Shown: positions 55,577 through 64,000 of the stretch, piece by piece
Layout: each line of letters begins with the position of its first letter
Numbering within the stretch: the first letter of the stretch is position 1
Assembly (NCBI GenBank): GCA_017939155.1
Contig: JAGAZZ010000048.1
Span: 23,083-87,082 of the forward strand
Length of the DNA stretch: 64,000 bases
Direction of reading: 5' to 3'
Source: Alphaproteobacteria bacterium
Lineage (GTDB): Bacteria; Pseudomonadota; Alphaproteobacteria; RF32; CAG-239
Notes under the pieces: model-generated
What the model saw: only the letters and a program-made list of their open reading frames with translations
Told to the model about the DNA's origin: nothing
Database searches by the model: none
Program-made: the position numbers and the translations under genes

Positions 55577-56194
55577 TTAATCTCCGATAACAAGCGTGTT
55601 CTTATCTCTTTTAATCTCAACATCGCTCCCTTTAAGATACGCCATCATAAAATAAAGCGGCGCGTAAGCCGATGGATTTTCTTTAACCTCGTTCCCGTTG
55701 AGAATCAAATCAATGTGAGCAAGCTTTGCTTCATCAAGCGCAAAATCAGATAACGCCGTCACCTTAACCCCGGAAGCGTTTTGCTTAACCTCTAAAACCC
55801 CGCCTTTAATAATCACGTCTGCCATCATCATCACCGCCGGCATAATAATCTTGTGAATCTTCGGTGTTTCAATCTCCATCTTAAGCTTAATCGGTCGTTC
55901 CGGATTACCAAGTGTTGAGAGGTAGTCGGCGCAAATCTCATAAAGCTCATCAATGCTTTTAACCGCGGCATTTGACAGTCCAAAACAAACTCTGAAAAAT
56001 TTAAGCCTTTTGCTTAACACTTTAGCACTAAAATCTAAAATATTTTTAATGTCTTCAATGTCATCTCCCTCGTCGCACTCGCTAAAGAGTTCAACCGCGT
56101 TGTTTACCGCGCCGATATTGCCAATCAGGTCATGTGATAATCTTGTTGCCGTCACTTCTTCTAAAAAAATGCTGTTCATCATAAATCCTATCAA
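55577..56194 (-). CDS. chpT: ChpT-type histidine phosphotransferase
   Basis: TATRLSHDLIGNIGAVNNAVELF matches the ChpT/HPTransfase signature (..R.CHDL..P.GA..NG.EL). Confidence 0.75.
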   Translation of the reverse strand: MIGFMMNSIFLEEVTATRLSHDLIGNIGAVNNAVELFSECDEGDDIEDIKNILDFSAKVLSKRLKFFRVCFGLSNAAVKSIDELYEICADYLSTLGNPERPIKLKMEIETPKIHKIIMPAVMMMADVIIKGGVLEVKQNASGVKVTALSDFALDEAKLAHIDLILNGNEVKENPSAYAPLYFMMAYLKGSDVEIKRDKNTLVIGD

Positions 56195-61709: not shown

Positions 61710-62594
61710 TTACAAAACGCGCTTCTTCCGAAAACTGCCATCTGCCTTTTTCTGATAGCTGACCGGCTTAAAATCCGTCGTTTTGTTGTCTTTCTTGGCA
61801 AACTTGGCGCCGGCTTCTTTGCTCTTAAACCTGCGCTCCGGTTTGCGGGCGGCTTTTTCTTCGCTCATCGCTTTGCTTTTGGCAAAACGTGGTTTTTTAT
61901 CCTTAACCTCAATCACCTCAACGCCGTTTTCCATAAAGCTTCCTTTAGCCGCGCGCTTAAATTTAACCGCGCTTTTTTCCTTATTAAATTTCTTATCGGC
62001 TTTAACTTGTGTGGCAACACTCGGCGCTGTCTTTTGCTTTTTCTTTTCAACTGAAAAGCCGAATTTGCCGATTTTGCGCCCTAAAGTGTAATAAAAACCG
62101 TGCGCATAGGCGAGAAGTCCCGCTTTTTCCAAGTCAAGTGCGCCGTTCTCGTCAATATATGCTTCATCAACGTTAACCGCCACAACTTCGGCTAAAAACA
62201 TATCATGCGTGCCAAATTTCCTGACCTCTAAAACTTTGCACTCCAGCGACACCGGACACTCGGCAATTTGCGGCGCTTTAACCTGAGTTGAAGCTTCCGC
62301 GGTCAACCCGCACAATGCAAATTTGTCATAATCGCGTCCGGACTTCACGCCGACCGTATCTACTGCCTCGGCAATCTTCCACGTCGGAATGTTAATCACA
62401 AACTCTTTATTTTGACTGATAAGCTCATGCGTGTAGCGTGACGGTCTGATAGAAACGTATGTAATCACCGGCTCCGAGCAAATAATGCCGGTCCACGCGG
62501 CGGTCATCACATTTTTTGTATTCATATCCCCCGAGCTAATCAGCGCCGGTGGGAGAGGGGCAGTCAACGTCCCCGGTTTCCATGTCTGTTTCAT
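61710..62594 (-). CDS. Flavin reductase-like domain protein with about 115-aa lysine-rich C-terminal tail
   Basis: The N-terminal 180 aa match the flavin reductase-like fold (NVMTAAWTGIICSEPVITYVSIRPSRYTHELI). The tail is K/A/F-rich (KKKQKTAPSVATQVKADKKFNKEKSAVKFKRAAKG...). Preferred start ATG 62594. Confidence 0.75.
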   Translation of the reverse strand: MKQTWKPGTLTAPLPPALISSGDMNTKNVMTAAWTGIICSEPVITYVSIRPSRYTHELISQNKEFVINIPTWKIAEAVDTVGVKSGRDYDKFALCGLTAEASTQVKAPQIAECPVSLECKVLEVRKFGTHDMFLAEVVAVNVDEAYIDENGALDLEKAGLLAYAHGFYYTLGRKIGKFGFSVEKKKQKTAPSVATQVKADKKFNKEKSAVKFKRAAKGSFMENGVEVIEVKDKKPRFAKSKAMSEEKAARKPERRFKSKEAGAKFAKKDNKTTDFKPVSYQKKADGSFRKKRVL

Positions 62595-62663
62595 CAAAAA
62601 AATCCTTCTTAATAAATTCGCTCAACCATAACAGGAAGTTTTAAAAAAGTAAAGCGGGATTTA

Positions 62664-62690
62664 TAAAAAAAACGGAGCCAAAGCTCCATT
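62664..62690 (-). terminator. Rho-independent terminator after hydF
   Basis: Minus strand GGAGC-TTTG-GCTCC followed by GTTTTTTTT. Confidence 0.75.
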
Positions 62691-62692
62691 TT

Positions 62693-63904
62693 TCATTTTT
62701 GAAGAAGCGGAGCCGCCGTGCGCTCCAAAACACCTTGCGCCAAAGAAATCACCATCCCGTAGTTTGTCGCAGGAATGCCAGCCGCTTTGCACAAATCAAG
62801 CCGTCGTCTTATTTCTTTTTTATTTAAAACACACCCGCCGCAATGCACCACTAAAGCATAGCGGTTCAAGTCATCGGGAAAGTCCCCGCCCGAGCAAAAC
62901 TCAAAGTTTAGCTTTTTGCCGGTATATTTTTGCATTAATGCCGGAATTTTAACCCGCCCGATGTCATCGCAGGTCTGTCTGTGCGAACAGCCCTCAACAA
63001 TCAAAATCGTGTCATCGTCTTTTAAGTTTTTGCAATCAAGCGCGCCGCTCATCTGTTGCTCAAAGTTGCCTTTCTGCCGTGAAAACAACATCGAAAAAGT
63101 GGTGAGAGCGACCTCTTGCGGCACGAGCTCGGCAACTTTTTTAACCGCTTGTGAATCCGTAATCACCAGAGCCGGTTTCAAATGAAGATTTTTGAGCGTT
63201 TGCACTAAAGTGTTTTCTTTCGTAACATAAGCCATAGCCCCTAAATCAAGCGTTTCGCGCAAAACCTGAACCTGTGGCATAATCAACCGCCCTTTAGGCG
63301 CCGCCAAATCAATCGGCGTAACTAAAACCACCGTGTCGTTTTCTTTAACCAAATTTCTTAAAAGCGAATCATCTTCGTTTTTTGCCAAAATCATCTCCGC
63401 CATTTTTTGCTTAAGTTCTTCCACGCCGACACCTGTTTTGGCCGAAACAAAACAGCCCTGATAAAGTTGCGCCACCGCTTTGGTATATTTATCAGCCGCG
63501 ACCACATCGCAAAAGTTAAACACCGGAATAAACGCTTTCCCCTCAAGATTAAGCTTTCTTAATTCTTCTTCAATTGTTCCGTCAAGTCCGTCTTTGCCAA
63601 TGACATATAAAATCAAATCAGCTTTATTTAAGATTTTTTCACTTGCCTTAACCCGGTTTCTGCCCAAATCGTCTGCGGTGTCATCAAGCCCCGCCGTGTC
63701 ATAAAAAGAAACCGCTCCCGCCGGAATAAGCTCGTAGGTTTTGCATACCGCGTCCGTCGTCGTCCCCAAAACATCAGAAACGATAGAAACCTCTTGTCCG
63801 GTTATAGCATTTAAGAGCAAAGATTTTCCGGCATTGCGCTTTCCGGCGATGACGATAACCGGACGCATCCCCGCATGCGGTGTCAAGTTCATTTCGGTAG
63901 TCAT
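62693..63904 (-). CDS. hydF: [FeFe]-hydrogenase H-cluster maturation GTPase HydF
   Basis: GTPase motifs GKRNAGKS, DTAG and NFCD. The C-terminal cluster-binding signature is EGCSH ... HCGGC, with about 50-aa spacing. Confidence 0.85.
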   Translation of the reverse strand: MTTEMNLTPHAGMRPVIVIAGKRNAGKSLLLNAITGQEVSIVSDVLGTTTDAVCKTYELIPAGAVSFYDTAGLDDTADDLGRNRVKASEKILNKADLILYVIGKDGLDGTIEEELRKLNLEGKAFIPVFNFCDVVAADKYTKAVAQLYQGCFVSAKTGVGVEELKQKMAEMILAKNEDDSLLRNLVKENDTVVLVTPIDLAAPKGRLIMPQVQVLRETLDLGAMAYVTKENTLVQTLKNLHLKPALVITDSQAVKKVAELVPQEVALTTFSMLFSRQKGNFEQQMSGALDCKNLKDDDTILIVEGCSHRQTCDDIGRVKIPALMQKYTGKKLNFEFCSGGDFPDDLNRYALVVHCGGCVLNKKEIRRRLDLCKAAGIPATNYGMVISLAQGVLERTAAPLLQK

Positions 63905-63999
63905 TGTTGATTATTCCTTTCTTTAGCTTCGTTAATAGGTTCTTTAGGCAATAAAACAAAATCTTTTAGCGCGTTTTGCCAATTAATATGTCCTAAATC
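63901..63999 (-). CDS. 3' end of an upstream gene translationally coupled to hydF (partial)
   Basis: My translation of the open frame is DLGHINWQNALKDFVLLPKEPINEAKERNNQQ*. The stop TGA overlaps the hydF ATG (ATGA). Identity is not determinable from 32 aa. Confidence 0.4.
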   Translation of the reverse strand, partial: DLGHINWQNALKDFVLLPKEPINEAKERNNQQ

Positions 64000-64000
64000 T

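What the first reader, a model, noticed from the sequence alone, without database searches (positions are those of the whole stretch)
62693..64000. HydF [FeFe]-hydrogenase maturase, coupled to an upstream gene, in an otherwise aerobic-looking alphaproteobacterial context
HydF is recognisable by its GTPase motifs (GKRNAGKS, DTAG) and its C-terminal CSH...HCGGC cluster-binding signature. Its ATG overlaps the stop of an upstream gene that runs off the window (ATGA, 63901-63904). That arrangement is typical of hydE/hydG/hydF operons. F1Fo ATP synthase and other alphaproteobacterial markers sit nearby. A nitroreductase and a flavin reductase are also in the window. This suggests fermentative or anaerobic H2 metabolism in a lineage with host-interaction repeat proteins. 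That is of interest for anaerobic symbioses.
Basis: partly seen in the sequence, partly recalled or inferred. Interest (0 to 1): 0.6.

Follow-up and report, generated by a model that had tools for sequence, protein, structure and literature searches.

The report
Ordinary HydF maturase, anaerobic gut alphaproteobacterium
The gene is a genuine, intact HydF, one of three helper enzymes that build the iron-iron hydrogenase cofactor, in a strictly fermentative gut alphaproteobacterium whose relatives nearly all carry it, as was published for sister species in 2016, so it is real but ordinary.

Summary
Window 62693-63904 (-) encodes a 403-aa HydF: TIGR03918 scores 482 bits against a cut-off of 326, all three HydF domains are present, and it matches solved HydF structures over its full length. 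Its ATG overlaps the stop of an upstream gene (ATGA, 63901-63904).

- The upstream gene is not hydE or hydG. It is a genus-restricted membrane protein of about 883-913 aa. Its predicted fold matches the periplasmic domain of ScsB, but the membrane and thioredoxin-domain cysteines are missing.
- hydG lies 17.6 kb away. hydE and the only hydrogenase gene, a group B monomeric [FeFe] enzyme, are on other contigs.
- The genome is not aerobic-looking. It is rated 100% complete, yet no haem-copper oxidase, cytochrome bd oxidase, NuoD or RnfC was found, and it has pyruvate:ferredoxin oxidoreductase.
- HydF is not a recent import. It is in 172 of 201 sampled genomes of the order but only 18 of 401 across the class, and its composition is within the genome's range.

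HydE/F/G with [FeFe] hydrogenases and PFO in human-gut alphaproteobacteria were reported in 2016 (PMC4967309). This scan has also noted scattered hyd genes in many other gut alphaproteobacterial genomes.

Small new points: a genus-wide N-F/Y-x-D variant of the GTPase G4 motif, and the conserved pairing with the ScsB-like gene.

The parts
62693..63904 (-). hydF coding sequence, 403 aa: GTPase domain, dimerisation domain and [4Fe-4S]-binding (tetramerisation) domain
   Evidence: ORF. TIGR03918 at 481.7 bits against a cut-off of 325.55. Pfam MMR_HSR1, HydF_dimer and HydF_tetramer. Full-length match to solved HydF structures 5kh0, 3qq5 and 5lad at E about 1e-95.
63821..63844 (-). G1 / P-loop GKRNAGKS (residues 21-28)
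   Evidence: Read from the sequence. G21, N24, G26, K27 and S28 are invariant in the genus alignment.
63689..63700 (-). G3 motif DTAG (residues 69-72)
   Evidence: invariant.
63506..63517 (-). G4 motif NFCD (residues 130-133). The canonical Lys of NKxD is replaced by Phe.
   Evidence: All 12 HydFs of the genus clade read N-F/Y-x-D. The other HydFs of the 108-row set, the remaining alphaproteobacterial ones included, read NKxD or NKxE.
62981..62989 (-). CSH (C306, H308), first half of the Fe-S cluster-binding signature
   Evidence: C306 and H308 invariant. Aligns with the CTH of the solved HydFs.
62831..62845 (-). HCGGC (H354, C355, C358), second half of the cluster-binding signature
   Evidence: H354, C355, G356 and C358 invariant.
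63901..64000 (-). Last 33 codons of the upstream gene. The whole gene is G000:C39:86983-89724, 913 aa from the first start, and more likely about 883 aa from Met31, where a signal peptide begins. It is an ScsB/DsbD-like membrane protein without the membrane and thioredoxin-domain cysteines. Its TGA overlaps the hydF ATG.
   Evidence: ORF; no sequence family; only 14 homologues; predicted fold matches the ScsB N-terminal domain 6c29, E 5e-11, TM-score 0.76 on the target; only C368 and C375 conserved.
63915..63920 (-). Shine-Dalgarno-like AAAGGA, 10 nt before the hydF ATG and inside the upstream gene
   Evidence: Read from the sequence. Its role is inferred.
62665..62687 (-). Intrinsic-terminator-like hairpin GGAGC-TTTG-GCTCC followed by G and T8, starting 5 nt after the hydF stop
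   Evidence: Sequence. The same hairpin is listed by the scan on the opposite strand at L125 271-284. Its function is inferred.

Best explanation
The gene encodes HydF, the GTPase scaffold on which the di-iron part of the [FeFe]-hydrogenase active site is assembled from the products of the radical-SAM enzymes HydG and HydE, and from which it is passed to the hydrogenase. In this genome the client is the single group B (monomeric, ferredoxin-type) [FeFe] hydrogenase on contig 41.

The organism is a small-genome (1.78 Mb), strictly fermentative alphaproteobacterium of a gut-associated, uncultured order. Pyruvate:ferredoxin oxidoreductase reduces ferredoxin, and the hydrogenase disposes of the electrons as H2.

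The hyd genes are scattered. hydF is the second and last gene of a two-gene transcription unit whose first gene is an unrelated envelope protein, and the pairing is most likely inherited synteny with no functional meaning.

Shown: family membership, motifs, gene content and distribution. Inferred: enzyme activity, the direction of H2 metabolism and co-transcription.
For: - HydF identity.
- Complete partner set, all intact ORFs above curated cut-offs: HydG 730 bits at C39:104566-105984; HydE 392 bits at C32:27880-28965; one Fe_hyd_lg_C hit in the genome that is TIGR04105 'monomeric [FeFe] hydrogenase' at 458.5 against 450 bits, with the H-cluster motifs TSCCP, GPCLAK and MSCEGGCIAGPG; PFOR 1775 bits.
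- Anaerobic make-up: no COX1, cytochrome bd, NuoD or RnfC.
- Alphaproteobacterial identity: GcrA at 137 bits; a ChpT-like protein in the window; the nearest public HydFs are labelled 'Acetobacter sp.' or 'Alphaproteobacteria bacterium'.
- Lineage-wide trait: 172 of 201 genomes of the order.
- Published function of group B enzymes in gut bacteria, namely reoxidising PFOR-reduced ferredoxin: PMC12578642.
- Published presence of HydE/F/G, [FeFe] hydrogenases and PFO in gut metagenomic alphaproteobacteria: PMC4967309.
- The upstream protein is not dedicated to Hyd: genome G004 keeps it on an intact contig with hydF deleted, and has no HydG or HydA either.
Against: - No expression or activity data.
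- The G4 motif lacks the canonical Lys (NFCD), so GTP binding could differ from studied HydFs.
- The hydrogenase scores only just above the TIGR04105 cut-off.
- The tight hydF linkage to the ScsB-like gene is kept in every genus genome where both genes were found. This could mean more than synteny.
- The genome is a 58-contig draft, so absences rest on a completeness estimate.
Confidence: 0.86

Rival explanations
1. One reading: an otherwise aerobic alphaproteobacterium recently acquired hydF, as part of a hydE/G/F operon, by lateral transfer.
For: - HydF is rare across the class: 18 of 401 sampled genomes.
- Alphaproteobacterial HydFs cannot be forced into one clade (AU p = 0.001), so transfers have occurred at some depth.
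- The nearest HydFs outside the class are from Desulfovibrionaceae and Shewanella, at about 49% identity.
Against: - HydF is in 172 of 201 genomes of the order and 18 of 22 genera.
- The genus forms its own clade (SH-aLRT 98), sister to other alphaproteobacterial HydFs.
- GC and GC3 lie at the 80th-82nd percentile of the genome's long ORFs, like PFOR.
- No oxidases or complex I were found.
- The upstream gene is not hydE or hydG.
Confidence: 0.03
2. The ScsB-like membrane protein and HydF form a functional pair, for example membrane tethering of cofactor assembly or envelope-linked control. The genus-wide G4 change (NKxD to NF/YxD) would then reflect an altered nucleotide switch.
For: - The same-strand, overlapping or near-abutting arrangement is kept in every genus genome where both genes were found, despite only 30-45% protein identity.
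- The G4 variant is confined to the same clade.
- The ScsB-like protein is found only in this group: 14 homologues among 5.8 billion proteins.
Against: - G004 keeps the membrane protein after losing hydF, hydG and hydA.
- The protein has a signal peptide, periplasmic beta-sandwich domains and a periplasmic thioredoxin-like domain, whereas HydF acts in the cytoplasm.
- Conserved adjacency within one genus is expected from descent alone.
Confidence: 0.06
3. hydF here is a decaying or re-purposed gene that no longer serves hydrogenase maturation.
For: - In two sister species (G013, G020) hydF is cut down to a 230-aa piece without the GTPase domain, and hydG was not found. Decay of the system therefore does occur in the genus.
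- The G4 motif is non-canonical.
Against: - In this genome HydF is full length, with every cluster ligand and the G1 and G3 motifs intact.
- HydE, HydG and HydA are all intact and above their cut-offs.
- A 91% identical orthologue exists in a sister species and a 95% identical protein in public data, so the gene is conserved.
Confidence: 0.04

Closest known systems
HydE/HydF/HydG of uncultivated human-gut alphaproteobacteria (Acetobacter sp. CAG:977, Azospirillum sp. CAG:239 and CAG:260, Acetobacter sp. CAG:267; Degli Esposti et al. 2016, Biol Direct 11:34, PMC4967309)
   Same: Small-genome gut metagenomic alphaproteobacteria with all three maturases, a short ferredoxin-domain [FeFe] hydrogenase (their 'type A') and PFO. 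The nearest named public relatives of this HydF carry the same provisional 'Acetobacter sp.' label.
   Different: This genome shows only one hydrogenase gene (group B). The long NuoG-like 'M3' form with NuoE/F partners reported for CAG:977 and CAG:239 was not found. I could not fetch the paper's accessions, so whether this genus is one of their organisms is untested.
Structurally solved HydF of Thermosipho melanesiensis (PDB 5kh0, 5lad) and Thermotoga neapolitana (3qq5)
   Same: Alignment end to end at E about 1e-95. Same three domains, the same CxH...HCxxC ligands and the conserved PKGRLI(M/L)PQVQ and DIGRVKIP blocks.
   Different: The G4 motif reads NFCD where the solved HydFs have a Lys (NKID). 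A Cys-Asp (C312-D313) sits where the Thermotoga-type proteins have Thr-Glu.
Clustered hydEF, hydGEF or hydEGF maturase genes of Shewanella, Desulfovibrionaceae, Clostridia and others
   Same: Orthologous proteins at 43-51% identity for HydF.
   Different: In those genomes hydE and/or hydG lie within a few kb of hydF. Here, and throughout the genus, they do not, and hydF follows an unrelated membrane-protein gene.
Group B [FeFe] hydrogenases of gut Bacteroides and Firmicutes (Welsh et al. 2025, Nat Microbiol, PMC12578642)
   Same: The presumed client enzyme of this HydF belongs to the same NCBIfam subfamily (TIGR04105) and co-occurs with PFOR, the published electron source.
   Different: The host is an alphaproteobacterium, a group that paper does not name (0 occurrences). 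The score is only marginally above the cut-off.
ScsB (DsbD superfamily), N-terminal domain structure 6c29 from Proteus mirabilis. This comparison is for the upstream gene only.
   Same: Predicted two-beta-sandwich periplasmic domain (Foldseek E 5e-11, TM-score 0.76 on the target) with a conserved Cys pair. It is followed by a helical membrane domain and a thioredoxin-like end domain.
   Different: No sequence-level family match. The membrane-domain cysteines are replaced (LMPG/LMPA) and the CxxC of the end domain is absent (WSPxS or worse), so the electron relay that defines DsbD and ScsB cannot run.

Membership tests
HydF ([FeFe] hydrogenase H-cluster maturation GTPase, TIGR03918) | Full-length match to the equivalog model above its curated cut-off | tested here: met
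   481.7 bits against 325.55, profile positions 3-391 of 392.
HydF ([FeFe] hydrogenase H-cluster maturation GTPase, TIGR03918) | Three-domain build: N-terminal GTPase, dimerisation domain, C-terminal cluster-binding domain | tested here: met
   Pfam MMR_HSR1 17-130, HydF_dimer 181-279, HydF_tetramer 284-397. End-to-end alignment to 5kh0 and 3qq5.
HydF ([FeFe] hydrogenase H-cluster maturation GTPase, TIGR03918) | Fe-S cluster ligand signature CxH...HCxxC | tested here: met
   C306, H308, H354, C355 and C358 are invariant in the genus and aligned with the solved HydFs.
HydF ([FeFe] hydrogenase H-cluster maturation GTPase, TIGR03918) | Canonical GTPase motifs G1 (GxxxxGKS), G3 (DxxG) and G4 (NKxD) | tested here: inconclusive
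   G1 GKRNAGKS and G3 DTAG are present. G4 reads NFCD, with the Lys replaced by Phe throughout the genus clade. The effect on GTP binding is unknown.
HydF ([FeFe] hydrogenase H-cluster maturation GTPase, TIGR03918) | Co-occurrence with HydE, HydG and an [FeFe] hydrogenase in the same genome | tested here: met
HydF ([FeFe] hydrogenase H-cluster maturation GTPase, TIGR03918) | GTP hydrolysis and transfer of the 2Fe subcluster to apo-HydA | not testable with these tools
   Needs biochemistry.
Clustered hydE/hydG/hydF operon | hydE or hydG adjacent to and co-oriented with hydF | tested here: not met
   The upstream gene has no Pfam or NCBIfam match and an ScsB-like predicted fold. The downstream gene is a flavin reductase. 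hydG is 17.6 kb away on the other strand and hydE is on contig 32.
Group B monomeric [FeFe] hydrogenase (TIGR04105), the presumed client | Subfamily model above its cut-off, plus the H-cluster motifs | tested here: met
   458.5 against 450 bits. TSCCP, PCxxK and MxCxxGCxxG are seen in the translation. Fe_hyd_lg_C plus two 4Fe-4S domains.
ScsB/DsbD reductant transporters (upstream gene) | Three cysteine pairs: periplasmic N-domain, membrane domain, thioredoxin-like C-domain | tested here: not met
   Only the N-domain pair (C368, C375) is conserved. There is no conserved Cys in the membrane or C-terminal domains.
ScsB/DsbD reductant transporters (upstream gene) | Fold of the N-terminal periplasmic domain | tested here: met
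   Foldseek against PDB: 6c29_A, E 5.3e-11, probability 1.00, TM-score 0.76 on the target. The model has mean pLDDT 73, and 80-90 in that domain.
Alphaproteobacteria (host assignment) | Lineage-typical cell-cycle regulators and labelled relatives | tested here: met
   GcrA at 136.9 bits; among the controls it rings in Caulobacter and one archaeon only. A ChpT-like protein at E 1e-13, below its cut-off. The closest public HydFs are labelled Acetobacter sp. or Alphaproteobacteria bacterium. No rRNA or marker-gene tree was made.

The most novel reading that the evidence does not exclude
The genus-wide two-gene unit, a redox-dead ScsB-like envelope protein followed by HydF with an N-F/Y-x-D G4 motif, is a functional module. 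In this reading HydF has been rewired, with altered nucleotide handling and a membrane partner, compared with all studied HydFs.
Probability: 0.06. Interest if true: 0.45.

Novelty: already known. Interest (0 to 1): 0.15.

Why it matters
It matters little as a discovery. HydF with scattered hydE, hydG and hydA in strictly anaerobic gut alphaproteobacteria was published in 2016. NCBI already names close relatives HydF, and this scan has met the same situation in many other genomes.

Its use is as annotation. It shows that this genome belongs to an H2-evolving fermenter (PFOR, ferredoxin, group B hydrogenase) and not to an aerobe, which corrects how the rest of the window should be read. The order-wide presence against the class-wide rarity of HydF, and the rejection of a single alphaproteobacterial HydF clade, are modest data points for the debate on where eukaryotic hydrogenase maturases came from. 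No eukaryotic sequences were compared here.

Tried and rejected
- **hydEFG operon idea.** Rejected. The contig was extended. The upstream ORF is 913 aa with no Pfam, NCBIfam or PDB sequence match, and tblastn of the genome's own HydE and HydG finds nothing beside hydF in any genus locus.
- **'Aerobic context'.** Rejected by family searches of the whole genome.
- **Recent lateral transfer.** Rejected from distribution, the tree and composition. The deeper history is not resolved: the tree is a quick search, and the AU test only shows that the alphaproteobacterial HydFs are not one clade.
- **Upstream protein as a dedicated Hyd accessory.** Made unlikely by G004, which keeps it without hydF, hydG or hydA.
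- **HydF-less genus members.**
  - G024 and G048: contig ends fall exactly at the ScsB-like/hydF locus, so these are assembly gaps, not shown losses.
  - G008 and G005: the flanking gene was not found either, so these remain undecided.
- **PF28432.** This Pfam tag on homologues of the upstream protein is not in the local library, so its name could not be read.
- **Literature on the gut order.** A search for RF32 / CAG-239 with hydrogenase gave nothing useful. I did not verify that this genome belongs to that GTDB order; that name is from memory only.

Full report
**Observation**

The minus strand of the window holds an uninterrupted ORF at 62693-63904, 403 aa.
- It matches the NCBIfam equivalog for HydF (TIGR03918) over practically the whole profile, at 481.7 bits against a curated cut-off of 325.55. 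Generic GTPase families (MnmE, Der, Era) match only residues of about 15-180, at 84 bits or less.
- Pfam finds the three HydF domains: MMR_HSR1 17-130, HydF_dimer 181-279 and HydF_tetramer 284-397.
- It aligns end to end with the solved HydF proteins 5kh0, 3qq5 and 5lad at E about 1e-95.
- The start ATG (63904-63902) overlaps the TGA (63903-63901) of a frame that is open to the window's edge.
- An AAAGGA lies 10 nt before the ATG. A GGAGC-TTTG-GCTCC hairpin with a T8 tail starts 5 nt after the stop.

**What lies upstream**

The window is G000:C39:23083-87082 in a 1.78-Mb, 58-contig assembly rated 100% complete. Reading on along the contig, the upstream gene is not hydE or hydG.
- It is a 913-aa ORF, more likely about 883 aa from Met31, where a signal peptide begins and where the homologues start.
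- It has no Pfam, NCBIfam or PDB sequence match.
- Only 14 homologues were found among 5.8 billion proteins.
- An AlphaFold model built on 12 homologues has mean pLDDT 73, and 80-90 in the folded domains. It shows two periplasmic beta-sandwich domains, a helical membrane domain and a thioredoxin-like end domain.
- Foldseek matches the beta-sandwich part to the N-terminal periplasmic domain of ScsB from Proteus mirabilis (6c29, E 5e-11, TM-score 0.76 on the target).
- Only the N-domain cysteine pair (C368, C375) is conserved. The membrane-domain motif reads LMPG or LMPA with no cysteine. The thioredoxin-like domain has WSPxS or worse where CxxC would be.

It is thus an ScsB/DsbD-like envelope protein that cannot run the cysteine relay that defines that family.

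**Is the pairing meaningful?**

In every genus genome where both genes were found, the ScsB-like gene sits directly before hydF on the same strand. The junction ranges from an overlap to a gap of about 70 nt.

In one species (G004) an intact contig shows the ScsB-like gene followed directly by the usual downstream gene, with hydF gone. That genome also has no HydG and no hydrogenase. The envelope protein therefore persists without the Hyd system, which argues that the pairing is inherited synteny. I give the functional-pair reading 6%.

**The rest of the Hyd system**

| Gene | Place | Evidence |
|---|---|---|
| HydG | C39:104566-105984 (+), 17.6 kb from hydF | 730 bits against 312 |
| HydE | C32:27880-28965 | 392 bits against 255 |
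| HydA | C41:6530-7972, 480 aa | only Fe_hyd_lg_C match in the genome; TIGR04105 'monomeric [FeFe] hydrogenase' (group B) at 458.5 against 450 bits |
| PFOR | C33:1347-4895 | 1775 bits |

- HydA has two 4Fe-4S domains and the H-cluster motifs TSCCP, GPCLAK and MSCEGGCIAGPG.
- HydA has no NuoE/F-like neighbours.

**The host is not aerobic-looking**
- Whole-genome family searches found no COX1-family haem-copper oxidase (this family includes cbb3), no cytochrome bd, no NuoD and no RnfC. The same searches ring in the expected control genomes.
- The F1 ATP synthase genes are in the window, but they do not indicate respiration.
- The lineage does look alphaproteobacterial. GcrA is present at 137 bits. 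A ChpT-like protein sits at window 55577-56194 (below its cut-off). The nearest public HydFs are labelled 'Acetobacter sp.' or 'Alphaproteobacteria bacterium'.
- Earlier notes of this scan call the genome an uncultured gut alphaproteobacterium. I tested that only through the markers above.

**Distribution and descent**
- HydF above the cut-off is in 172 of 201 sampled genomes of the order and in 18 of 22 genera.
- It is in only 18 of 401 genomes drawn evenly across the class, mostly ones with small genomes.
- In a quick maximum-likelihood tree of 108 HydFs, the genus, including the record named 'uncultured Acetobacter sp.', forms a clade with SH-aLRT 98.
- That clade is sister to three other alphaproteobacterial HydFs. 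Both lie inside a larger, moderately supported cluster with further alphaproteobacterial lineages, Desulfovibrionaceae, Shewanella and Cloacimonadota.
- Two other genera of the same family fall elsewhere in the tree, and one alphaproteobacterial HydF sits among Bacillota.
- An AU test rejects a single clade of all alphaproteobacterial HydFs (p = 0.001). Transfers have therefore happened in the class, but nothing points to a recent one into this genome.
- hydF has GC 0.46 and GC3 0.485, at the 80th-82nd percentile of the genome's long ORFs. hydG, hydE, hydA and PFOR are similar.

**Synteny elsewhere**

In many other phyla hydE and/or hydG lie within a few kb of hydF. In this genus and in most other alphaproteobacterial loci examined they do not. 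The scattered layout is the lineage's norm.

**One genus-specific detail**

All 12 HydFs of the genus clade have N-F/Y-x-D where the other HydFs in the set have the canonical G4 motif NKxD or NKxE. What this does to nucleotide binding is unknown. It is the only feature of the protein that departs from the family pattern.

**Comparison with what is known**
- Degli Esposti et al. 2016 (PMC4967309) reported HydE, HydF and HydG, short and long [FeFe] hydrogenases and PFO in human-gut metagenomic alphaproteobacteria, and discussed them in relation to eukaryotic hydrogenases.
- Welsh et al. 2025 (PMC12578642) showed that group B [FeFe] hydrogenases of gut bacteria are active and reoxidise PFOR-reduced ferredoxin.
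- NCBI already names close relatives HydF.
- This scan's earlier follow-ups on other genomes reached the same verdict for scattered hyd genes in gut alphaproteobacteria.

**Verdict**

The gene is a real, intact and ordinary HydF in a fermentative gut alphaproteobacterium. I class it as already known and of low interest.

**Limits**
- The tree is a quick search without eukaryotic sequences.
- Absences rest on a draft genome.
- The GTDB name of the order was not verified.

Noticed in passing
window 63506-63517 (HydF residues 130-133): The GTPase G4 motif reads NFCD. All 12 HydFs of the genus clade have N-F/Y-x-D, while the other HydFs compared have NKxD or NKxE. It is a clade-wide replacement of the base-contacting lysine by an aromatic residue.
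   Followed up: partly
G000:C39:86983-89724 (window 63901 onward, beyond the edge); loci L125-L141: A genus-restricted membrane protein of about 880-1140 aa with an ScsB-like periplasmic domain (predicted fold match to 6c29), a helical membrane domain and a thioredoxin-like end domain. Only the N-domain Cys pair is kept. It looks like a redox-dead DsbD/ScsB relative of unknown function.
   Followed up: partly
L134 2907-3599 (G020) and L135 2883-3575 (G013): Two sister species carry a 230-aa HydF remnant that lacks the whole GTPase domain and has a degenerate PKGRLILPQVQ block. It sits directly after the ScsB-like gene. HydG was not found in either genome, yet a group-B-like hydrogenase gene is kept. 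This may be a maturation system in decay.
   Followed up: partly
L136 (G004:C23:23900-30500): A sister species has the ScsB-like gene followed at once by the usual downstream gene, with hydF cleanly absent. HydG and HydA were not found in that genome either (rated 90% complete).
   Followed up: partly
L112 (G041) and L119 (G042), same family as the window's genome: HydFs of two other genera of the same family fall in different parts of the HydF tree from the window's genus and are only 42-50% identical to it. This suggests replacement of hydF within the family, or very uneven rates of change.
   Followed up: no
L028 (record titled Limosilactobacillus gorillae, contig CAVCSV010000004.1): This contig carries a HydF nearly identical to that of an alphaproteobacterial genome (G226, same class as the window). 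The record is probably a mislabelled or contaminated bin.
   Followed up: no
window 61710-62597 (-): A flavin-reductase-domain protein with a lysine-rich tail of about 115 aa lies just downstream of hydF. The same gene follows hydF in several genus members (L020, L022, L025, L128, L129), at 62-94% identity.
   Followed up: no
window 55577-56194 (-): A 205-aa protein matches the ChpT histidine phosphotransferase models at E 1e-13 but far below their cut-offs. It is a divergent member of the alphaproteobacterial CckA-ChpT-CtrA relay.
   Followed up: no
L147 (G024:C60) and L142/L148 (G048:C25): In two high-completeness genus assemblies the contigs end exactly at or inside the ScsB-like gene. Their apparent lack of hydF is therefore an assembly gap, and this locus seems hard to assemble.
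   Followed up: partly
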